Shown here: positions 5,862 to 36,220 of the stretch, piece after piece
How the letters are laid out: each line of letters opens with the position of its first letter
How positions within the stretch are numbered: the first letter of the stretch is position 1
From: a virus
Lineage: Duplodnaviria > Heunggongvirae > Uroviricota > Caudoviricetes
Length of the DNA: 41,425 nucleotides
IMG/VR virus record: IMGVR_UViG_2534681699_000016
Reading direction: 5' to 3' (one strand)
The notes under the pieces: generated by a model
Told to the model about the DNA's origin: nothing
Database searches by the model: none
What the model saw: only the letters and a program-made list of their open reading frames with translations
Made by a program: the position numbers and the translations under genes

Positions 5862-7115
5862 TTACTTCTCTAATAAACATTGGTCCGATTGTGCTTTAAA
5901 ATAAGCACAAAGCAATATTATGGTGATAAACACAGCAGTCGGAACCGGTTTAGAAAAGAGTATTACATCACTTAGTCCTACTACCAGTAGTGAAAAAAGC
6001 AAGATTAAAATATAAGGTTCTTTAGCAGTTCTTAAGGCATATATGAGTATTGCTGAAAATGCTAAAATTGTTAATACAACTCCAGGAATACCACGCGTTG
6101 ATAACGTATCTATGAGATCGTTATGCAAATGAGAATCTACATAGGGTAAAGCGCCACTCAATCTAGGCTCTTTTTCTTCTAGTTCATGTATTTTTTCCGC
6201 ACGTTTTTCCAGTGATTGTCCTATTGGAGAATATGTTTTTAAGCCAACTTCATACATTGCCAGACGGGCACCGACTGAAGTTCTGGTGTTATCATGCGAA
6301 TAATTAACTAAATCGTTATTTAAGTCATTCATTCTCATAAGCAATGTATCTTTAAAAGAAAATACACCTGCTAATAATGCAATCGTAATAAAACAATATA
6401 ACTTATAATTAATTCGCTTATTAATATAACTATCCATTACGATTAATATTAACGCAAAGAATGGAAACACTAATATGGCTGCACGCGTCTCAGTTACTAT
6501 GACAGCACATAAGCTAAGCATGAAGTTAATTGTATATAATGTTGTTTTATGTCTAAAGTCGGATTTTAAAATGAGAATTGATGCCAGTAAAGAAGGAAAA
6601 AGGATGATGTAGCCTGCTGTTGTAGCGTGGGAAGCTGATAATGCAACACGGTCGACGTTTAAATAGAAATGTTGCCACATGGCATGCGCAAAAAAAAGTA
6701 ACTGCGTTGCCAGGGATGCGAACAGAATTAGTTTCCCAAATTTTATTTTTGTTCTCATCTCATTTTTAGCAAAAAGAACTAAGAAAATAAAAGCGCTACA
6801 CAAGGCAATTTTTCCAGTTTCCATTGGGCCACGATATGCATTGGTATAAACAGAGCCTGAAATTTTATAATGTGAATACCAGATGATATTTACGATACCC
6901 AAAAGACATAATGAGATGAAAATTAACAAAGTAGGATTATTAGTTATTGTTTTTTTTGGTGTCACAAGAAAATACAATGCAGATATAATTCCAGCTGCAT
7001 GAAGAAACTTTGTTGCAACATCATCCCATAAAGACAAAGTCATTAAAGAAAAAATACATAATATGAGAATTAAAGACTTTATACCAGAATTAATTTCATT
7101 CCAACAAAACGACAT
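5862..7115 (-). CDS. waaL: O-antigen ligase (lipid A-core surface polymer ligase)
   Basis: 417-aa highly hydrophobic polytopic membrane protein, AT-rich, at the position waaL occupies at the end of the outer-core operon; sequence is low-conservation as expected for core-type-specific WaaL. Confidence 0.85.
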   Translation of the reverse strand: MSFCWNEINSGIKSLILILCIFSLMTLSLWDDVATKFLHAAGIISALYFLVTPKKTITNNPTLLIFISLCLLGIVNIIWYSHYKISGSVYTNAYRGPMETGKIALCSAFIFLVLFAKNEMRTKIKFGKLILFASLATQLLFFAHAMWQHFYLNVDRVALSASHATTAGYIILFPSLLASILILKSDFRHKTTLYTINFMLSLCAVIVTETRAAILVFPFFALILIVMDSYINKRINYKLYCFITIALLAGVFSFKDTLLMRMNDLNNDLVNYSHDNTRTSVGARLAMYEVGLKTYSPIGQSLEKRAEKIHELEEKEPRLSGALPYVDSHLHNDLIDTLSTRGIPGVVLTILAFSAILIYALRTAKEPYILILLFSLLVVGLSDVILFSKPVPTAVFITIILLCAYFKAQSDQCLLEK

Positions 7116-7160
7116 ATAGTTTCAACCTATGCTACGAGGATGGGTTATTTAATGCAAGAT

Positions 7161-8144
7161 CTAACGTTTATTCTTTTTTCTATTTACCAGTCTTACCATC
7201 CTCCAGATAATATAATTTTTTGATGCTAATATTTTTGCTCGTCTCTTATCTCTCTTGCCAGGAAGATTACAATCTTTTAATTCTTTTTCATTGCTTTCAA
7301 CTAATTGATTCAATTGTTTAAAATCACCATTAAGTAGAACATTCCACAAATAACGAGTTTTATGATAAGCTCTATTTTGACTCAATAATGTATGAATTTC
7401 TTCTTTCCGGTTACCTTTGTATAACTGCATCACAGAAGAGTAGATTTTTTCGTGCACAAATGACTCATGTCGATAATGAGTGATGGTTCTACATGAGTTC
7501 ATTAAGGAATTTTCTCTATAGTTATGCTTATACATATAATATGGAACCGCATACATATCGCATGTAATTAGCAGTCGATAGATAAAATCCAGATCTTCTC
7601 CTAGTCGTAAATCTTCATCAAAAAAAAGATTATTCTCTTCCAGAAGTTGTTTTCTTATAAACAAGCACCCTATATGGAATCTAACCTTTTTATAAAAAAA
7701 GTCGAAAAGTAAAGATCCTTCATTAAACTCTGTATTTATAGGTGAGTAAGTAACACCATTTTTTATATGATGGCCATAAAGCCCACAATAAATGGCATCT
7801 CCTCCCGTCTCATGTTGTCTGGAATACATCTTCAGCAGATAGTTAGGATCTATCTCATCATCATCATCCATAAAACATATAAACTGTCCTTGCGCCTTGC
7901 GGATACCTGTATTCCTGGCAGACGAAACACCGCCATTTTCTTTATTGATAATAATTAATCGAGAGTGGGTTAACCCATACTCTCTCAAAACGTTTGATGT
8001 GTTGTCTTTAGAACCATCATTAACAATAACAATTTCAAAATTTGGGTAAGTTTGTTTTTCTAATTTCGTTAGAGTTTCAGTAATGTAATCAGATGAATTA
8101 TACGTCGGTATTATTATGGATACTAAAGGGTAATCATTGCTCAT
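7161..8144 (-). CDS. waaV: Family-2 glycosyltransferase, R1-core-type beta-glucosyltransferase WaaV-like
   Basis: 327-aa ORF with GT-A N-terminal motif SIIIPTYNSSDYI, VNDGSKDNT and an acidic DDDD (DXD-like) motif; located between waaW and waaL as in R1-type loci. Confidence 0.75.
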   Translation of the reverse strand: MSNDYPLVSIIIPTYNSSDYITETLTKLEKQTYPNFEIVIVNDGSKDNTSNVLREYGLTHSRLIIINKENGGVSSARNTGIRKAQGQFICFMDDDDEIDPNYLLKMYSRQHETGGDAIYCGLYGHHIKNGVTYSPINTEFNEGSLLFDFFYKKVRFHIGCLFIRKQLLEENNLFFDEDLRLGEDLDFIYRLLITCDMYAVPYYMYKHNYRENSLMNSCRTITHYRHESFVHEKIYSSVMQLYKGNRKEEIHTLLSQNRAYHKTRYLWNVLLNGDFKQLNQLVESNEKELKDCNLPGKRDKRRAKILASKNYIIWRMVRLVNRKKNKR

Positions 8145-22701: not shown

Positions 22702-23418
22702 TCAGTTTGCCAGCGCCGCCTTCTGCGTCGCTACAATGGATTCGATTCCCCCTCGGGCCAGCGCCAACAAGGTGAGTAGCTCTTCATGGGTGAACGGCTC
22801 GCCTTCTGCCGTCCCCTGCACTTCAATGATGCGCCCGTCTTCGGTCATCACTACGTTCATGTCGGTCTCTGCGGCTGAGTCTTCAACGTATTCCAGATCG
22901 CAAATTGCTTCACCGTTTACAATACCGACAGAAACTGCGGCTACCATCCCTTTCATCGGGTTGGTTTTCAGCTTGCCGTTTTCCACCAGCTTCTGTAGCG
23001 CATCTGCCAGCGCCACGCAGGCACCCGTAATCGACGCGGTACGCGTGCCACCATCAGCCTGAAGCACGTCGCAGTCCAGCGTAATGGTGAACTCACCCAG
23101 CGCTTTCAAATCTACTGCCGCGCGAAGAGCACGGGCGATCAGACGCTGGATTTCCATTGTGCGTCCACCCTGCTTACCTTTCGCCGCTTCACGAGCGTTA
23201 CGGGTGTGGGTAGAACGTGGCAGCATGCCGTACTCTGCGGTGATCCAGCCCTGGCCCTGACCTTTCAGGAAGCGCGGCACGCCTTCTTCAATAGAGGCGG
23301 TACACAACACTTTGGTATCGCCAAATTCGACCAGCACCGAGCCTTCTGCATGTTTTGTATAGTTACGAGTCAGGGTAACGGGACGCACCTGATTATTGCT
23401 ACGGCCTGCTGGACGCAT
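22702..23418 (-). CDS. rph: Ribonuclease PH (full length)
   Basis: 238-aa product [37 protein letters not shown]... reading uninterrupted to ...[10 protein letters not shown]; trimmed from the ORF-track start at 23442. Confidence 0.95.
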
Positions 23419-23544
23419 ATTGAAATCTCCGGCTTGAAACAAATGTGGCTGCGCATTATACGGACTTCCGGCGGTTATTCCTATCCTGACAAGGCATCGA
23501 TGGCTATAATCCTTCCACCTCTCCTTTTATAAACAGGAACGTCT

Positions 23545-24408
23545 ATGATCCGCAGTATGACCGCCTACGCCCGGCGTGAAATCAAGGGTGAATGGGGGAG
23601 CGCAACCTGGGAAATGCGCTCGGTAAACCAGCGTTATCTGGAAACTTACTTTCGTCTGCCGGAGCAGTTCCGTAGCCTTGAACCTGTCGTTCGCGAGCGT
23701 ATTCGTTCTCGCCTGACGCGCGGTAAAGTGGAATGTACCCTGCGCTATGAGCCAGATGTTAGCGCACAAGGTGAGCTGATCCTCAATGAAAAACTGGCTA
23801 AACAGCTGGTAACTGCCGCGAACTGGGTAAAAATGCAGAGTGACGAAGGGGAAATCAACCCGGTTGATATTCTGCGCTGGCCGGGCGTGATGGCAGCCCA
23901 GGAGCAGGATCTCGACGCCATTGCCGCTGAAATTCTCGCGGCGCTGGATGGTACGCTGGACGACTTTATTGTCGCGCGCGAAACCGAAGGTCAGGCACTG
24001 AAAGCATTGATCGAGCAGCGTCTGGAAGGCGTCACCGCCGAAGTGGTCAAAGTCCGCGCCCATATGCCGGAAATCCTGCAATGGCAGCGTGAGCGTCTGG
24101 TCGCGAAGCTGGAAGATGCTCAGGTTCAGTTGGAAAACAACCGTCTGGAGCAGGAGTTGGTTCTGCTGGCACAACGAATTGACGTTGCCGAAGAACTGGA
24201 CCGCCTGGAAGCGCATGTCAAAGAGACCTACAACATTCTGAAGAAAAAAGAAGCCGTTGGTCGTCGTCTGGACTTTATGATGCAGGAATTCAACCGCGAG
24301 TCGAACACTCTTGCGTCGAAATCTATCAATGCCGAAGTGACAAACTCCGCCATCGAGCTGAAAGTGTTGATTGAGCAGATGCGCGAGCAGATTCAGAATA
24401 TTGAGTAA
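23545..24408 (+). CDS. yicC: YicC-family protein (endoribonuclease YicC)
   Basis: 287-aa ORF MIRSMTAYARREIKGEWGSATWEMRSVNQRYLE... recognised as YicC; divergent from rph. Confidence 0.9.
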   Translation: MIRSMTAYARREIKGEWGSATWEMRSVNQRYLETYFRLPEQFRSLEPVVRERIRSRLTRGKVECTLRYEPDVSAQGELILNEKLAKQLVTAANWVKMQSDEGEINPVDILRWPGVMAAQEQDLDAIAAEILAALDGTLDDFIVARETEGQALKALIEQRLEGVTAEVVKVRAHMPEILQWQRERLVAKLEDAQVQLENNRLEQELVLLAQRIDVAEELDRLEAHVKETYNILKKKEAVGRRLDFMMQEFNRESNTLASKSINAEVTNSAIELKVLIEQMREQIQNIE

Positions 24409-24443
24409 CTCGTAACACTAATTCTTACTTTTCAGCCTTCACA

Positions 24444-24476
24444 AATGCCGCCCACTCAAACAGAGCGGCATTTTTC
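24444..24476 (+). terminator. Putative intrinsic terminator downstream of yicC
   Basis: Stem atgccgc / gcggcat around a 13-nt loop, followed by tttttc, about 35 nt after the yicC stop. Confidence 0.5.
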
Positions 24477-24567
24477 TTCCCCGCAACTTCAATTCTGTTT
24501 TGCGTGCCTGCTCCAGATTTTGCGATGTTTTTTTGCCCAGCACACTGAGAACGTGAGATACTCACAA

Positions 24568-24583
24568 CTGTATATAAATACAG
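24568..24583. promoter_or_regulatory. LexA operator (SOS box) upstream of dinD
   Basis: CTGTATATAAATACAG fits CTGT-N8-ACAG with an AT-rich spacer, 46 nt upstream of the dinD ATG. Confidence 0.85.
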
Positions 24584-24628
24584 TTACAGATTTACTTTCT
24601 TTGCAATCGATATCACATGGAGTGGGCA

Positions 24629-25453
24629 ATGAACGAACATCATCAACCTTTTGAAGAAATACGGCATTATGGCACTGAAGGGCAAGAATTTTGGTCAGCT
24701 AGAGAATTGGCACCGTTACTGGATTATCGGGACTGGCGCAATTTTCAAAAGGTACTGGCCCGCGCGACTCAAGCGTGCGAAGCCAGCAATCAAGCTGCAT
24801 CTGACCATTTCGTTGAAACCACCAAAATGGTTGTATTAGGTTCAGGGGCTCAACGAGAACTTGAAGATGTTCATCTCTCCCGCTATGCCTGTTACCTGGT
24901 AGTACAAAACGGCGACCCTGCGAAACCGGTTATTGCGGCAGGGCAAACTTATTTTGCTATCCAGACCCGACGGCAGGAGCTGGCTGACGATGAAGCTTTC
25001 AGGCAACTTCGTGAAGACGAAAAGCGTCTTTTTCTGAGAAATGAATTGAAAGAACATAACAAACAATTAGTTGAGGCAGCGCAGCAAGCTGGGGTAGCGA
25101 CAGCTATCGATTTCGCCATATTTCAGAATCATGGTTACCGGGGGCTGTATGGTGGATTAGATCAGAAAGCCATCCATCAGCGGAAGGGGCTGAAAAAGAG
25201 TCAGAAGATCCTGGATCATATGGGTTCAACAGAACTGGCGGCTAATCTCTTTCGAGCTACCCAAACAGAAGAAAAACTCAAGCGGGATGGCGTGAATTCA
25301 AAACAGCAAGCTAATACCACACACTTTGACGTGGGTAGCAAGGTGAGGCAAACCATTCAGGAACTTGGCGGAACCATGCCTGAGGAGTTGCCGACCCCGC
25401 AGGTCAGCATCAAGCAGTTGGAAAACAGTGTAAAAATTACAGAGAAGAAATAG
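24629..25453 (+). CDS. dinD: DNA-damage-inducible protein D
   Basis: 274-aa product beginning MNEHHQPFEEIRHYGTEGQEFW; preceded by a LexA box; ORF-track start (24617) trimmed. Confidence 0.9.
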   Translation: MNEHHQPFEEIRHYGTEGQEFWSARELAPLLDYRDWRNFQKVLARATQACEASNQAASDHFVETTKMVVLGSGAQRELEDVHLSRYACYLVVQNGDPAKPVIAAGQTYFAIQTRRQELADDEAFRQLREDEKRLFLRNELKEHNKQLVEAAQQAGVATAIDFAIFQNHGYRGLYGGLDQKAIHQRKGLKKSQKILDHMGSTELAANLFRATQTEEKLKRDGVNSKQQANTTHFDVGSKVRQTIQELGGTMPEELPTPQVSIKQLENSVKITEKK

Positions 25454-25743
25454 CAGAAACTAAAAACTCTTTTTGTTGATTGAGACACCCGATGCGTAAG
25501 CCAAGGTCCAGGTGCAGTGAACACAATGGCTAAATATTGCACCTTTCTTTTCCCCCCTCAGTTTTAACCTATTTTTTCTTATGAATTTTCTCAGACAAGA
25601 AGTCAGAAGAATGCATCTCTGCTACAGAAAATAGCGATTTCACATAACTACAAGTTATCAATTTCCCCTCACCTTAAAAAATCTCAATCGTGACAATGCG
25701 CACAAATCGCTACCCTGCCAGACAGATTTTTAGGGAGAGAACC

Positions 25744-28921
<3,178 letters not shown>

Positions 28922-32079: not shown

Positions 32080-34161
32080 ATGAAAGGTCGCCTGTTAGAT
32101 GCTGTCCCACTCAGTTCCCTAACGGGCGTTGGCGCAGCACTTAGTAACAAACTGGCGAAAATCAACCTGCATACCGTGCAGGATCTACTCTTACACCTTC
32201 CCCTGCGCTACGAAGATCGCACCCATCTCTACCCCATCGGAGAACTACTGCCGGGCGTTTATGCCACGGTGGAAGGCGAAGTGCTGAACTGCAATATCTC
32301 CTTCGGCGGTCGGCGGATGATGACCTGCCAGATCAGCGACGGTTCCGGCATCCTCACCATGCGCTTTTTCAATTTCAGCGCGGCAATGAAAAATAGCCTG
32401 GCGGCGGGCCGCCGTGTACTGGCTTATGGCGAAGCAAAGCGCGGTAAATATGGTGCGGAGATGATCCACCCGGAATACCGCGTGCAGGGCGATCTCAGCA
32501 CGCCAGAATTACAGGAAACGCTCACGCCGGTTTATCCAACAACGGAAGGCGTAAAGCAGGCCACGCTGCGTAAATTAACCGACCAGGCGCTGGATCTGCT
32601 CGACACCTGCGCCATTGAAGAACTCCTGCCGCCGGAACTGTCACAAGGAATGATGACGCTACCGGAAGCGTTGCGCACTTTGCACCGCCCGCCACCGACG
32701 CTACAGCTTAGCGATCTGGAAACCGGGCAGCATCCGGCGCAACGTCGTCTGATTCTGGAAGAACTGCTGGCGCACAACCTCAGCATGTTAGCCTTACGTG
32801 CCGGAGCACAGCGTTTTCATGCCCAGCCGCTGAGCGCCAATGACACGCTGAAAAATAAACTCCTCGCCGCCTTACCGTTCAAGCCAACGGGCGCACAGGC
32901 ACGCGTAGTGGCGGAGATCGAGCGCGATATGGCGCTGGATGTGCCGATGATGCGTCTGGTGCAGGGCGATGTAGGTTCCGGTAAAACGCTGGTCGCCGCC
33001 CTCGCCGCGTTGCGTGCGATTGCCCACGGCAAACAGGTAGCATTGATGGCACCAACCGAATTACTCGCCGAGCAGCACGCCAATAACTTCCGCAACTGGT
33101 TTGCACCGCTCGGTATCGAAGTGGGCTGGCTCGCCGGTAAGCAGAAAGGTAAAGCACGGCTGGCACAGCAGGAAGCCATCGCCAGCGGTCAGGTGCAGAT
33201 GATTGTCGGTACACACGCCATCTTCCAGGAACAGGTGCAGTTTAACGGCCTAGCGCTGGTGATTATCGACGAACAGCATCGTTTTGGCGTGCATCAGCGT
33301 CTGGCATTGTGGGAGAAAGGCCAGCAGCAGGGCTTCCATCCGCATCAGTTGATCATGACCGCCACGCCGATCCCCCGCACGCTGGCAATGACTGCGTATG
33401 CCGATCTCGATACCTCGGTGATAGATGAGCTGCCGCCAGGCCGCACGCCAGTGACTACGGTCGCTATTCCTGATACCCGCCGTACCGACATCATTGACCG
33501 CGTGCACCACGCCTGCATAACTGAAGGTCGTCAGGCATACTGGGTTTGTACGTTGATTGAAGAGTCGGAATTGCTGGAAGCGCAGGCGGCGGAAGCTACC
33601 TGGGAAGAGTTGAAACTGGCGCTACCAGAGTTGAACGTTGGCCTGGTACACGGGCGGATGAACCCTGCCGAGAAACAGGCGGTGATGGCGTCGTTTAAAC
33701 AAGGTGAGCTACACCTGCTGGTTGCCACAACCGTTATTGAAGTCGGCGTTGATGTGCCTAACGCCAGTCTGATGATTATCGAAAACCCGGAGCGTCTGGG
33801 TCTGGCGCAGTTACACCAGCTTCGCGGGCGTGTAGGTCGTGGTGCGGTGGCTTCTCACTGCGTGCTGCTCTACAAAACGCCGCTCTCCAAAACCGCGCAA
33901 ATTCGGCTGCAAGTGCTGCGCGACAGCAACGACGGTTTTGTGATTGCACAGAAAGACTTAGAGATTCGCGGACCGGGTGAACTGTTAGGTACGCGTCAGA
34001 CGGGTAATGCTGAGTTTAAAGTGGCGGATTTACTGCGCGATCAGGCGATGATCCCGGAAGTTCAGCGCCTGGCGCGACATATTCACGAACGTTACCCACA
34101 ACAAGCAAAAGCCCTGATAGAACGCTGGATGCCGGAGACGGAACGTTACTCCAACGCATGA
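32080..34161 (+). CDS. recG: ATP-dependent DNA helicase RecG
   Basis: 693-aa product MKGRLLDAVPLSSLTGVGAAL... with Walker A (GDVGSGKT), DEQH box (IIDEQHRFG) and helicase C motifs; ORF-track start (32047, overlapping trmH) trimmed to the ATG at 32080. Confidence 0.95.
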   Translation: MKGRLLDAVPLSSLTGVGAALSNKLAKINLHTVQDLLLHLPLRYEDRTHLYPIGELLPGVYATVEGEVLNCNISFGGRRMMTCQISDGSGILTMRFFNFSAAMKNSLAAGRRVLAYGEAKRGKYGAEMIHPEYRVQGDLSTPELQETLTPVYPTTEGVKQATLRKLTDQALDLLDTCAIEELLPPELSQGMMTLPEALRTLHRPPPTLQLSDLETGQHPAQRRLILEELLAHNLSMLALRAGAQRFHAQPLSANDTLKNKLLAALPFKPTGAQARVVAEIERDMALDVPMMRLVQGDVGSGKTLVAALAALRAIAHGKQVALMAPTELLAEQHANNFRNWFAPLGIEVGWLAGKQKGKARLAQQEAIASGQVQMIVGTHAIFQEQVQFNGLALVIIDEQHRFGVHQRLALWEKGQQQGFHPHQLIMTATPIPRTLAMTAYADLDTSVIDELPPGRTPVTTVAIPDTRRTDIIDRVHHACITEGRQAYWVCTLIEESELLEAQAAEATWEELKLALPELNVGLVHGRMNPAEKQAVMASFKQGELHLLVATTVIEVGVDVPNASLMIIENPERLGLAQLHQLRGRVGRGAVASHCVLLYKTPLSKTAQIRLQVLRDSNDGFVIAQKDLEIRGPGELLGTRQTGNAEFKVADLLRDQAMIPEVQRLARHIHERYPQQAKALIERWMPETERYSNA

Positions 34162-35012
34162 CCAGACTCATCACAAGACAAGTCACGCAGTAAATCTTCA
34201 ATCTGGATAGTGAGGATATCCATTGCCTCATACGCATCCTGTGCAATTCGCGCCGCCATTGCGCCTTCCGGTTCACCACGCAGAATTTCAGCCGCTGCCT
34301 GTACGCCAGCCACAATCATTTCAGGTGTTAACATTTGGCGAAGAAAAGCGCGATTATCAGAGGACCAGCCATCTTTATGGCCTAATGGATGCCCCCAGCC
34401 TATCCATTCTTGCGACCATAACGGATTGGCTTCTATGGGATAAATTAGATGCGCGGCATACTGAATAGCACACACCGCTTTTCCTGGCGTATCCAGCGCC
34501 CACCAGCGCGACCAGAGAGAACGAATTAACGGCGCGGCCCCACCCAGAGTATTGAACACCGCCAGCCAGCAAAGAACGTTATTGAAACCACGCTCGTTAT
34601 CCATACGCTGCAACGCGGTGTCCAGTAAAAATTGCCGTACCTGCTGGCGTTGGGAAGCATTCATCATCTCCTGCCAGAGATAGGGCCGACACAATGCCTT
34701 CATTAAGGATTCTTCGAAGTGATCACCATAACCGCCAGCTAAAACGGTTTCATGCCATTGCGCCAGGCAGAGCGGAAACAGATAGCGAAACAACTCTATT
34801 TGCATCGGTTCGTTATAAACGAGATTGAGTACATAGTAAGCACTCAAATCCCATTCGCTGATCTGCTGCCACTCTTTAGCCGCCAGCGCCTTGAGTTCGG
34901 CATCTGCGTAATCAAATTCCGTTTCCCATACACAGAGCACTGGCGGCTCATCACCAAAAATATGGCGACAGTGTTCACGTAGCGTTTCCGGTTCCTTCCG
35001 ACGCTTTTTCAT
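34146..35012 (-). CDS. Hypothetical cytoplasmic protein of unknown function (288 aa), downstream of and translationally coupled to gltS
   Basis: Uninterrupted 867-nt ORF with an ATG start 2 nt after the gltS stop; no predicted transmembrane segments; Trp-rich; host-like base composition; 3' end overlaps the convergent recG stop by 16 nt. I do not recognise the family. Confidence 0.6.
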   Translation of the reverse strand: MKKRRKEPETLREHCRHIFGDEPPVLCVWETEFDYADAELKALAAKEWQQISEWDLSAYYVLNLVYNEPMQIELFRYLFPLCLAQWHETVLAGGYGDHFEESLMKALCRPYLWQEMMNASQRQQVRQFLLDTALQRMDNERGFNNVLCWLAVFNTLGGAAPLIRSLWSRWWALDTPGKAVCAIQYAAHLIYPIEANPLWSQEWIGWGHPLGHKDGWSSDNRAFLRQMLTPEMIVAGVQAAAEILRGEPEGAMAARIAQDAYEAMDILTIQIEDLLRDLSCDESGHALE

Positions 35013-35014
35013 TT

Positions 35015-36220
35015 TTAACCGGCAAAAATCGGCAACATTAAATACAGCTTAATCACCAGCGCATTGACGATATCGATAAAGAACGCACCGACCATCGGCA
35101 CCACCAAAAACGCCATGTGCGACGGGCCAAAGCGTTCAGTGATCGCCTGCATGTTGGCGATTGCCGTTGGCGTTGCACCGAGGCCAAAACCACAGTGACC
35201 CGCAGCCAGCACTGCCGCATCGTAGTTTTTGCCCATCATGCGCCAGGTAACGAAGATGGCATACAACGCCATGAAGATGGTCTGTACCACCAGAATCGCC
35301 AGCATCGGCAGCGCCAGCGAAGCCAGCTCCCACAGTTTCAGCCCCATCAGCGCCATCGCCAGGAACAACGACAGGCTTACGTTACCCAGCACGGATACCG
35401 CACGCTCAAAGACGCGGTAAAAGCCCATCATTGACAGACCGTTGCTCAGAATCACGCCAACAAACAGTACACAGACGAAGGTCGGCAGTTCAAAAGCAGT
35501 GCCAGCCAAAAGTTGCGCAACAATTTTCCCCACCGTCAGGCAGATAGCAATCAGCGCGATAGTTTCAATCAGCACCAGCGAGGTGATCATGCGGCCCACA
35601 TCCGGCTTTTCAAACGCCGTCGGGACTTCCTGGTCATCCGGAATACCGTTCGGCGTGGTGGAGTGTTTCACCAGATAGCGCGCCACCGGACCGCCAATCA
35701 AGCCGCCCAGCACCAGACCGAACGTTGCACAGGCCATCGCCACTTCCGTCGCATTGGTGAAGCCATAACGTTCAATGAACAATTTACTCCACGCAGCGCC
35801 CGTACCGTGACCGCCGGAAAGCGTAATAGAACCGGCCAACAGCCCCATCAGCGGATCAAGCCCTAACAGGCTAGCCATACCAATGCCAATGGCATTTTGC
35901 ATCACCAACAGACCAACAACCACAATCAAGAAGATGCCAACCACACGCCCACCGGCACGCAAACTGGCAATGTTGGCGTTCAGGCCAATGGTGGCGAAGA
36001 AAGCCAGCATTAACGGATCGCGCAGGGACATATCAAAGTTGACTTCCCAGCCCATGCTTTTTTTCAGTACCAGTAGCGCTAGCGCCACCAACAAACCACC
36101 CGCAACAGGTTCCGGTATGGTGTATTTCTTCAAAAAGGAGACGGAATGGACCAACTTACGCCCGAGCAGCAACGTCAGCGTTGCGGCAACAAGCGTTGCT
36201 AAAGTATCGAGATGAAACAT
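35015..36220 (-). CDS. gltS: Sodium/glutamate symporter
   Basis: 401-aa polytopic membrane protein MFHLDTLATLVAATLTLLLGRKLVHSVSFLKKYTIPEPVAGGLLVAL... recognised as GltS. Confidence 0.93.
   Translation of the reverse strand: MFHLDTLATLVAATLTLLLGRKLVHSVSFLKKYTIPEPVAGGLLVALALLVLKKSMGWEVNFDMSLRDPLMLAFFATIGLNANIASLRAGGRVVGIFLIVVVGLLVMQNAIGIGMASLLGLDPLMGLLAGSITLSGGHGTGAAWSKLFIERYGFTNATEVAMACATFGLVLGGLIGGPVARYLVKHSTTPNGIPDDQEVPTAFEKPDVGRMITSLVLIETIALIAICLTVGKIVAQLLAGTAFELPTFVCVLFVGVILSNGLSMMGFYRVFERAVSVLGNVSLSLFLAMALMGLKLWELASLALPMLAILVVQTIFMALYAIFVTWRMMGKNYDAAVLAAGHCGFGLGATPTAIANMQAITERFGPSHMAFLVVPMVGAFFIDIVNALVIKLYLMLPIFAG

What the first reader, a model, noticed from the sequence alone, without database searches (positions are those of the whole stretch)
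34146..35012. Unrecognised 288-aa ORF wedged between recG and gltS, translationally coupled to gltS
The sequence shows a clean 867-nt ORF on the minus strand whose ATG sits 2 nt after the gltS stop and whose own stop overlaps the convergent recG stop by 16 nt. The product is soluble (no hydrophobic segments), Trp-rich, and carries no motif I can assign to a known family. From memory of the K-12 map, recG and gltS are adjacent with no annotated gene between them, so this may be a strain-variable or unannotated gene, but I cannot confirm that without a search. The tight coupling to a glutamate transporter suggests co-expression. Function is entirely open.
Basis: partly seen in the sequence, partly recalled or inferred. 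Interest (0 to 1): 0.6.

Follow-up and report, generated by a model that had tools for sequence, protein, structure and literature searches.

The report
Strain-variable helical-repeat gene beside recG
The ORF is a real, selectively maintained gene (database name Ybl159) that about a third of E. coli strains carry between recG and gltS; it encodes an uncharacterised helical-repeat protein whose distant relatives sit inside RNA-repair and ADP-ribose-removal operons, which gives a first testable lead to its function.

Summary
A 288-aa ORF lies at 34146-35012 (-). Its ATG is 2 nt after the gltS stop and its last 16 nt overlap the recG 3' end.

It is a real gene. RefSeq annotates it as 'hypothetical protein' (WP_000747329; UniRef name Ybl159). 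It is intact in 1912 of 5426 complete E. coli genomes, including O157:H7, O111 and B/BL21, and absent from K-12 and IAI39. It is always chromosomal. Across enteric genera synonymous sites are saturated while pN is 0.19-0.38.

It evolves fast: 47-71% identity where RecG is 92-94%. In every recG-linked enteric locus it abuts recG convergently. gltS is often absent, and the gene then has its own GGGAGG ribosome-binding site, so no functional tie to glutamate transport is implied.

The family has about 440 representative clusters and no Pfam, NCBIfam, PADLOC, PHROG or PDB match. The AlphaFold2 model (pLDDT 88) is an acidic, Trp-rich alpha-solenoid with no evident catalytic residues.

Planctomycete homologues repeatedly sit in operons with RlaP nucleotidyltransferases, Pnkp/Hen1, RNA ligase, Thg1, Macro-NADAR and ADP-ribosylglycohydrolase, with RtcB and KptA nearby.

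Best guess (about 0.3): a non-catalytic binding or adaptor module of RNA-damage and ADP-ribose-reversal responses, kept in E. coli as a solitary accessory gene.

The parts
34146..35012 (-). ybl159-like gene: 288-aa acidic, Trp-rich, all-helical (alpha-solenoid) protein of an uncharacterised family
   Evidence: ORF. RefSeq CDS WP_000747329.1. UniRef name Ybl159. Purifying selection. AF2 model with pLDDT 88 and 14 helices. About 440 family representatives.
35010..35017 (-). gltS stop (TAA), 2-nt spacer, then the ORF's ATG: a probable termination-reinitiation (translational coupling) junction with no Shine-Dalgarno sequence
   Evidence: Sequence. The same 0-2 nt junction occurs in Salmonella and in L007. 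Homologues that are not preceded by gltS carry GGGAGG 5-6 nt upstream instead.
35015..36220 (-). gltS (sodium/glutamate symporter), the upstream gene of the probable gltS-ORF transcription unit
34146..34161 (.). 16-nt overlap of the convergent 3' ends of recG and the ORF. This haplotype has no intergenic space and no terminator hairpin.
   Evidence: No terminator-like site was found here. ORF-less haplotypes carry a GC-rich hairpin instead.
32080..34161 (+). recG, the convergent neighbour. Its 3' end abuts the gene's 3' end in every recG-linked enteric locus found.
33762..34161 (+). Divergent haplotype tract at the recG 3' end, linked to the presence/absence polymorphism: 26 mismatches to K-12 in 400 nt, then 1 mismatch in the next 1300 nt

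Best explanation
Shown: this is a real, translated, chromosomal accessory gene. In E. coli it is co-transcribed with gltS and probably translated by reinitiation after gltS. It encodes a soluble, acidic, Trp-rich alpha-solenoid of about 290 aa. The family is uncharacterised, lies outside Pfam and NCBIfam, and evolves several times faster than its neighbours while remaining under purifying selection. Inferred: the protein is non-catalytic and acts as a binding or adaptor module in the cellular response to RNA damage and nucleic-acid ADP-ribosylation. It might present a damaged RNA end or a partner enzyme, or sequester an attacking ribotoxin. The basis is that its planctomycete homologues are operon partners of RNA end-healing and sealing enzymes and of ADP-ribose-removing enzymes. 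In Enterobacteriaceae the gene has become solitary. It is probably an ancestral resident at the recG 3' end that many lineages, including K-12, have lost by deletion. It would then act in trans with enzymes encoded elsewhere; from general knowledge, not tested here, E. coli has RtcB/RtcA, KptA, YmdB and YbiA.
For: Real gene:
- Intact and annotated in 1912 of 5426 complete E. coli genomes.
- pS 0.70-0.85 against pN 0.19-0.38 between genera.
- Within E. coli, synonymous:nonsynonymous codon differences are 11:10, 18:8 and 25:13, with the reading frame intact.
- A canonical GGGAGG ribosome-binding site precedes the gene wherever gltS is not upstream.

Fast evolution:
- 47-71% identity where RecG, TrmH and GltS are 89-96%.
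- Planctomycete copies are 44-58% identical where the adjacent RlaP genes are 70-90% identical.

Fold:
- AF2 pLDDT 88, pTM 0.88, 14 helices.
- Conserved residues are mainly aromatic or hydrophobic, with no catalytic-looking set.
- Median pI of the family is 5.0.

Genomic context of homologues:
- L047: Thg1 - RNA ligase - HD/AAA_33 kinase - NIF phosphatase - TARGET - RlaP - 126 aa - RlaP; neighbouring genes overlap by 4 nt or lie 3-6 nt apart, apart from 71 nt between the NIF gene and the TARGET.
- TARGET-RlaP-RlaP also occurs in L029 (plus an ADP-ribosylglycohydrolase), L037, L041 and L110 (with an R2K ATP-grasp gene). L032 has an RlaP gene nearby.
- L140: Hen1_L - 161 aa - NTP_transf_5 - TARGET - Pnkp.
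- L141: an RtcB gene about 3 kb upstream on the opposite strand, then Macro, HNH (opposite strand), TARGET.
- L142: KptA/Tpt1 and DUF4262 on the opposite strand, then Macro+NADAR overlapping the TARGET start by 23 nt.
- Macro-NADAR lies directly upstream in L127, L129 and L137 as well.
- At least 10 of 39 unique non-enteric loci with >= 1.5 kb of flank on both sides carry such a gene.
- RlaP is an RNA 3'-end nucleotide-adding enzyme (PMC12776372).
Against: - The E. coli gene has none of these partners nearby, and neither do the other proteobacterial homologues examined.
- About three quarters of non-enteric loci show no such neighbour at BLAST sensitivity.
- The associated loci all belong to one clade dominated by Planctomycetota, so the association may be clade-specific.
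- The E. coli protein is only 33-37% identical to those homologues.
- An acidic protein is not an obvious RNA binder.
- There is no expression, interaction or phenotype data of any kind.
Confidence: 0.3

Rival explanations
1. Orphan immunity-like inhibitor. The acidic helical-repeat protein binds and neutralises an incoming protein toxin or phage protein, and its fast evolution reflects an arms race. Its presence in RNA-repair cassettes would then mean that inhibitor and repair enzymes answer the same attack.
For: Fast evolution under constraint. Patchy distribution and a presence/absence polymorphism. pI about 5 and no catalytic residues. Some loci are arrays of small unrelated genes of unknown function plus Ank, HEAT, DinB and DUF6869/6714/6193/6968 genes.
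Against: None of about 50 loci has a gene with a recognised toxin domain immediately upstream. Large upstream genes are housekeeping genes. No match to any Pfam immunity family or to PADLOC. The gene is absent from phages and from true plasmids.
Confidence: 0.2
2. Accessory or regulatory subunit of the GltS glutamate symporter, made stoichiometrically by translational coupling.
For: The ATG lies 0-2 nt after the gltS stop with no Shine-Dalgarno sequence in E. coli, Salmonella and L007.
Against: The gene persists without gltS in Klebsiella sp., Pseudocitrobacter, Superficieibacter, Intestinirhabdus and Enterobacter sp. kpr-6, and in four of these loci a GGGAGG ribosome-binding site precedes its ATG. 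About 65% of E. coli genomes have gltS but not this gene. No gltS lies beside any non-enteric homologue.
Confidence: 0.05
3. Functionally tied to RecG or the spoT operon, either as a DNA-repair partner or through antisense and transcriptional interference arising from terminator-less convergent overlap.
For: The gene's 3' end abuts or overlaps the recG 3' end in every recG-linked enteric locus: 0-13 nt, with one exception at 353 nt. There is no terminator between the two genes.
Against: The orientation is convergent, so the two genes are not in one operon. No recG lies beside any of 53 non-enteric homologues. Adjacency within Enterobacteriaceae is explained by conserved synteny. Most E. coli genomes lack the gene.
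Confidence: 0.05
4. It has a cellular role unrelated to any of the above, such as small-molecule or protein scaffolding, and the planctomycete neighbourhoods reflect co-residence in accessory-gene islands.
For: Most loci show no conserved partner. The structure gives only generic alpha-solenoid matches.
Against: Tight operonic spacing with RNA-repair and ADP-ribose genes recurs, as overlaps of 4-23 nt or gaps of a few nt, in mutually divergent loci.
Confidence: 0.35

Closest known systems
Accessory components of bacterial RNA-repair operons (RlaP, Pnkp/Hen1, RtcB; Burroughs & Aravind 2016 as cited in PMC12776372 and PMC7824862)
   Same: Planctomycete homologues are encoded inside or next to such operons with small gaps or overlaps. 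The family shows the sporadic distribution and rapid divergence typical of conflict-related genes.
   Different: No catalytic motif. No described family name or profile. The E. coli member is solitary and far from any repair gene. I could not read Burroughs & Aravind 2016 to check whether this domain was already noted there.
Ro60/Rsr (TROVE) helical-repeat RNA-binding scaffold encoded with RtcB in some bacteria (from general knowledge)
   Same: A non-catalytic alpha-helical repeat protein genetically linked to RNA-repair enzymes.
HEAT/ARM/TOG alpha-solenoid domains
   Different: No HEAT or ARM profile match in 75 family members. Foldseek E >= 0.19 and TM <= 0.31. The resemblance is at the level of architecture, not a family assignment.
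Orphan immunity proteins of polymorphic toxin systems
   Same: Small, acidic, helical, fast-evolving, patchily distributed, and sometimes found in arrays of unrelated small genes.
   Different: No adjacent toxin gene in any locus and no match to an immunity family.

Membership tests
HEAT/ARM repeat proteins | Sequence match to HEAT, ARM or related repeat profiles | tested here: not met
   No Pfam hit for the E. coli protein at E <= 1. No HEAT or ARM family among the hits for 75 family members at E <= 0.1.
HEAT/ARM repeat proteins | Alpha-solenoid fold of stacked antiparallel helix pairs | tested here: inconclusive
RNA-repair / ADP-ribose-reversal operon component | Conserved operonic adjacency to RNA ligase, end-healing, nucleotidyltransferase or ADP-ribose hydrolase genes | tested here: inconclusive
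   Met for planctomycete homologues: L029, L032, L037, L041, L047, L110, L127, L129, L137, L140, L141, L142, which is at least 10 of 39 well-flanked unique loci. Not met for the E. coli gene or for other proteobacterial homologues.
RNA-repair / ADP-ribose-reversal operon component | Binding to, or activity on, damaged RNA or ADP-ribosylated substrates, or on partner enzymes | not testable with these tools
   Needs biochemistry or an interaction assay.
Polymorphic-toxin immunity proteins | Encoded immediately downstream of a toxin-domain gene | tested here: not met
   Neighbour maps of about 50 loci. Pfam scans of neighbours show housekeeping genes, RNA-repair genes or genes of unknown function, and no toxin domain adjacent.
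Polymorphic-toxin immunity proteins | Match to a described immunity family profile | tested here: not met
HEPN (partner of minimal nucleotidyltransferases) | Conserved Rx4-6H motif in a four-helix bundle | tested here: not met
   No conserved Arg or His with that spacing among positions >= 60% conserved.
5-hmdU DNA kinase helical domain (UniProt label of the Singulisphaera homologue P0235) | Sequence or profile similarity to the phage 5-HMUDK proteins or their helical domain model | tested here: inconclusive
   No Pfam hit for P0235 or nine other homologues at E <= 10, nor for 75 members. hhalign of the family profile against PhiW-14 gp37 gives probability 0.3%. M6 gp54 is the kinase domain only. 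I could not confirm that the helical-domain model is in the library, and I had only single-sequence templates.
Known anti-phage defence systems | Match to a PADLOC model | tested here: not met
Phage or plasmid cargo gene | Presence on phage or plasmid records | tested here: not met
   No viral contig. No phage record. Only 3 'plasmid' records, which are mislabelled chromosome pieces. All 1922 E. coli places are chromosomal.
GltS-associated subunit | Co-occurrence with gltS across lineages | tested here: not met

The most novel reading that the evidence does not exclude
The family is a previously unrecognised, widespread non-catalytic component of bacterial RNA-repair and nucleic-acid de-ADP-ribosylation systems. 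The solitary E. coli/Salmonella copy is an old presence/absence polymorphism that modulates survival of ribotoxin attack, for example by colicins or phage-triggered anticodon nucleases, or of attack by RNA or DNA ADP-ribosylating toxins. That would make BL21 and O157 differ from K-12 in this respect.
Probability: 0.15. Interest if true: 0.65.

Novelty: new member of a known kind. Interest (0 to 1): 0.4.

Why it matters
The gene is present in heavily used or medically important E. coli strains (B/BL21, O157:H7, O111 and many B1 strains) and absent from K-12, yet I found nothing published on it. Its family has no entry in Pfam or NCBIfam and no solved relative in the PDB. The recurring operon links to RlaP, Pnkp/Hen1, Macro-NADAR and ADP-ribosylglycohydrolase genes, with RtcB and KptA nearby, give a concrete and cheap hypothesis to test. 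They may also add a component to RNA-repair systems whose accessory parts are poorly understood. If the lead fails, this remains an ordinary accessory gene of unknown function.

Tried and rejected
- Pfam, NCBIfam, PADLOC and PHROGs scans of the protein gave no usable match.
- A Pfam scan of 75 family members gave only scattered hits at E >= 0.013.
- A PDB sequence-profile search gave nothing significant.
- The viral contig scan, the phage tblastn and the plasmid tblastn show the gene is not on mobile elements.
- Rfam found no RNA family in the region.
- The promoter and terminator scan found nothing beyond chance.
- Literature searches for guessed locus tags, for ybl159, and for recG/gltS/O157 found nothing relevant. 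Burroughs & Aravind 2016 is not held in the library.
- The search for related loci with the 75-sequence alignment failed for lack of a conserved stretch, so I used a 27-sequence alignment instead.
- A profile search with A2 added few proteins.
- I chased the '5-hmdU DNA kinase helical domain' label. My first comparison was against the wrong M6 ORF, a helicase. The true M6 kinase is a 187-aa kinase domain only. PhiW-14 gp37 shows no similarity. The result is unsupported but not excluded.
- A possible C-x-H-x3-E-x-H motif is invariant in 10 planctomycete members but is not conserved in the enteric proteins, so I did not use it.
Full report
**Observation.**
The ORF is exactly as described. It is an ATG-initiated 867-nt frame at 34146-35012 on the minus strand (288 aa). 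It starts 2 nt after the TAA of gltS (35015-36220, -). It ends 16 nt inside the 3' end of the convergent recG, which is annotated 32080-34161.

The product has GRAVY -0.24, 13 Trp (4.5%) and pI 4.9. It has no Pfam, PADLOC or PHROGs match, and its only NCBIfam hit is far below threshold (10.9 bits against a cut-off of 817).

The window is E. coli O157:H7, 100% identical to strain PV15-279. It spans the waa cluster through spoT-trmH-recG to gltS-xanP-yicH-yicI.

**Is it a gene?**
Yes.
- RefSeq annotates it as 'hypothetical protein' WP_000747329.1. UniRef calls it Ybl159.
- Megablast finds it at >= 80% coverage in 1912 of 5426 complete E. coli genomes. All copies are chromosomal, and 1873 are >= 99% identical. 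Carriers include O157:H7, O111:H8 and the B/BL21 laboratory strains.
- The K-12 derivative BW25113 has a 168-bp recG-gltS spacer instead, made of a GC-rich hairpin interrupted by a REP-like element. IAI39 has a 33-bp spacer holding only the hairpin.
- Between enteric genera, synonymous sites are saturated (pS 0.70-0.85) while pN is 0.19-0.38.
- Within E. coli, divergent alleles differ by 11:10, 18:8 and 25:13 synonymous:nonsynonymous codons, with the frame intact. That corresponds to roughly dN/dS 0.15-0.3.

**Translation signals.**
- Where gltS is upstream (E. coli, two Salmonella loci, and metagenomic L007), no Shine-Dalgarno sequence precedes the ATG. The ATG lies 0-2 nt from the gltS stop.
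- Where gltS is not upstream (Pseudocitrobacter, two Superficieibacter, Enterobacter sp. kpr-6), a canonical GGGAGG sits 5-6 nt before the ATG.
- This supports translation in all lineages. In E. coli it points to termination-reinitiation coupling to gltS.

**Position and evolution in Enterobacteriaceae.**
- In every recG-linked enteric locus recovered, the gene is convergent with recG. These loci are from Salmonella, Klebsiella sp. MISC125, Pseudocitrobacter, Superficieibacter, Intestinirhabdus, Enterobacter sp. kpr-6 and unnamed metagenomes. Its stop is 0-13 nt from the recG stop or overlaps it. The one exception is Superficieibacter electus, which has an extra 127-aa ORF in between.
- The gene on the other side varies: gltS, xanP or a glpX-like gene. 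So the constant is synteny with recG, not with gltS.
- Leminorella, a more distant member of the Enterobacterales, carries its homologue elsewhere, between a gapA-like gene and an aldose 1-epimerase gene.
- The protein is 47-71% identical across these genera, while RecG is 92-94%, TrmH 89-96% and GltS 91-93%.
- Against K-12, the last 400 nt of recG carry 26 mismatches and the next 1300 nt carry one. O157, K-12 and IAI39 each have a distinct haplotype at the recG 3' end. The presence/absence alleles are therefore old or introgressed.
- The simplest history, which is an inference, is an ancestral enteric gene at this site that many lineages have lost.
- The ORF-bearing haplotype has no terminator between the convergent genes.

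**The family.**
- A word-indexed search found only 33 clusters. The E. coli protein itself was hidden because its 90% cluster is represented by GltS, which is a clustering artefact.
- An exhaustive profile search found 439 representatives at E <= 1e-3, of which 317 are at <= 1e-10. Nearly all full-length hits are stand-alone proteins of about 270-330 aa.
- None of 75 diverse members matches a Pfam family.
- Genome and metagenome scans place the family in a few Enterobacterales, Cupriavidus, Zoogloeaceae, Accumulibacter, Sulfurovum, Marinicella, Saezia, Kuenenia, cyanobacteria and, above all, Planctomycetota. It is not in viral contigs, phages or genuine plasmids.

**Structure.**
- AlphaFold2 with the 21-sequence alignment gives pLDDT 88.1 and pTM 0.88, with 14 helices and no strands.
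- Foldseek against the PDB and BFVD finds nothing: E >= 0.19, TM <= 0.31. The PDB sequence-profile search is empty of significant hits.
- Family-wide conserved positions are mostly Trp, Tyr, Phe, Leu, Pro and Gly, plus D34, Q71, N196 and N220. There is no nucleophile, metal or P-loop-like constellation and no Rx4-6H motif.
- The family is acidic, with median pI 5.0.
- I read it as a non-catalytic binding module.

**Context of distant homologues: the functional lead.**
A Pfam tally of 119 neighbours in non-enteric loci singled out RlaP (PF10127), with six hits. Closer inspection showed the following arrangements.
- L047: Thg1-like, RNA ligase, HD+AAA_33 kinase, NIF phosphatase, TARGET, RlaP, a 126-aa protein, RlaP, a 433-aa protein. 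The genes overlap by 4 nt or lie 3-6 nt apart, apart from 71 nt between the NIF gene and the TARGET.
- TARGET-RlaP-RlaP recurs in L029 (followed by an ADP-ribosylglycohydrolase), L037, L041 and L110 (with an R2K ATP-grasp gene between the RlaPs). L032 has a fused RlaP nearby.
- In these loci the RlaPs are 70-90% identical but the targets only 44-58%. The linkage therefore spans much of the clade's diversity.
- Three further homologues, chosen only for long contigs, all gave related contexts:
  - L140: Hen1_L, a 161-aa protein, NTP_transf_5, TARGET, Pnkp (AAA_33-Metallophos-PNKP_ligase).
  - L141: an RtcB gene about 3 kb upstream on the opposite strand, then Macro, HNH (opposite strand), TARGET.
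  - L142: KptA/Tpt1 and DUF4262 on the opposite strand, then a Macro+NADAR gene overlapping the TARGET start by 23 nt.
- Macro-NADAR is also directly upstream in L127, L129 and L137.
- A HEAT_2 protein is a recurrent downstream neighbour.
- At BLAST sensitivity, at least 10 of 39 unique non-enteric loci with >= 1.5 kb on both sides carry such a gene.
- RlaP adds one or two nucleotides to damaged RNA 3' ends (PMC12776372). RNA ligases, kinases and phosphatases, Thg1, KptA and Macro domains are the known toolkit for repairing ribotoxin damage (PMC7824862). R2K ATP-grasp genes and ADP-ribosylglycohydrolases have been linked before in conflict systems (PMC4431377).

**Limits of the lead.**
- The E. 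coli gene and the other proteobacterial homologues have no such neighbours.
  - In Zoogloeaceae it follows a retropepsin-like gene.
  - In Cupriavidus it precedes DUF6869 and DUF6714 genes.
  - In Leminorella it lies between the gapA-like and aldose-epimerase genes.
  - In other loci the neighbours are genes of unknown function.
- Most planctomycete loci show no partner either.
- The E. coli protein is 33-37% identical to the operon-embedded ones.
- The inference is therefore family-level guilt by association. I put about 0.3 on it for the E. coli protein.

**Rivals.**
- An immunity-like inhibitor fits the fast evolution, acidity and patchiness. However, no locus has an adjacent toxin gene and no immunity profile matches.
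- A GltS subunit is contradicted by persistence of the gene without gltS and by gltS without the gene.
- A RecG-linked role rests only on enteric synteny in convergent orientation.
- A chance ORF is excluded.
- UniProt labels one Singulisphaera homologue '5-hmdU DNA kinase helical domain-containing protein'. I could not reproduce any similarity: no Pfam hit at E <= 10, and hhalign against PhiW-14 gp37 is negative. One search was run by mistake against an M6 helicase, and M6 gp54 is a kinase domain only. I leave this label as an open, weak lead.

**Verdict.**
It belongs to an unnamed alpha-solenoid family, with a new and testable link to RNA-repair and ADP-ribose-reversal systems. Interest is moderate. 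A strain-variable hypothetical gene is not surprising in itself. What makes it worth a simple genetic test is its presence in BL21 and O157, the clean structural model, and the recurring operon contexts.

Noticed in passing
window 33762-34161 (recG 3' end): The last 400 nt of recG differ from K-12 at 26 positions, while the next 1300 nt differ at 1. O157, K-12 and IAI39 each have a distinct haplotype here, so this is a recombination or old-polymorphism tract linked to the gene's presence or absence.
   Followed up: partly
L002 1763-1930 (K-12 BW25113) and L003 1763-1795 (IAI39): ORF-less E. coli carry a GC-rich hairpin, probably a bidirectional terminator, between recG and gltS. In K-12 it is split by a REP-like element. 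The ORF-bearing haplotype has no terminator-like structure at all.
   Followed up: partly
window 23294-26361: An ISEc8 (IS66-family) element (tnpA, tnpB, transposase) interrupts a 'trimeric intracellular cation channel family' gene, leaving two annotated fragments.
   Followed up: no
window 6755-7767: A glycosyltransferase family 8 gene in the waa LPS-core cluster is annotated as frameshifted in the identical O157:H7 record.
   Followed up: no
protein collection, cluster of window:34149-35012:-: The 90%-identity cluster containing this protein is represented by GltS and mixes GltS and Ybl159 sequences. This is presumably caused by fused gene calls. It hid the E. coli protein from the first homology search.
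   Followed up: partly
P0235 (Singulisphaera sp. Ch08; locus L031): UniProt names this homologue '5-hmdU DNA kinase helical domain-containing protein'. No Pfam hit or hhalign similarity to phage 5-hmdU kinases could be reproduced here.
   Followed up: partly
L005 5080-5463: Superficieibacter electus has an extra 127-aa ORF with no Pfam hit between the homologue and recG, overlapping the homologue's 3' end.
   Followed up: no
L047 4609-12249; L140 3341-8561; L142 2346-5927: These are compact planctomycete cassettes that combine RNA end-healing and sealing enzymes with ADP-ribose-processing enzymes and small proteins of unknown function (126 aa, 161 aa, 433 aa). They may be worth describing as systems in their own right.
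   Followed up: partly
L022 (record titled E. coli ECGI0523): All genes in this locus are broken into short ORFs, which points to a frameshift-rich assembly. I ignored it in the analyses.
   Followed up: no
alignment A5, columns around residues 96-104 of L054: The 10 planctomycete members aligned share an invariant C-x-H-x3-E-x-H segment ('CSHGDSEFH'). The enteric proteins do not conserve it; they have 'GYGDHFEES' there. It could be a clade-specific metal or ligand site.
   Followed up: no
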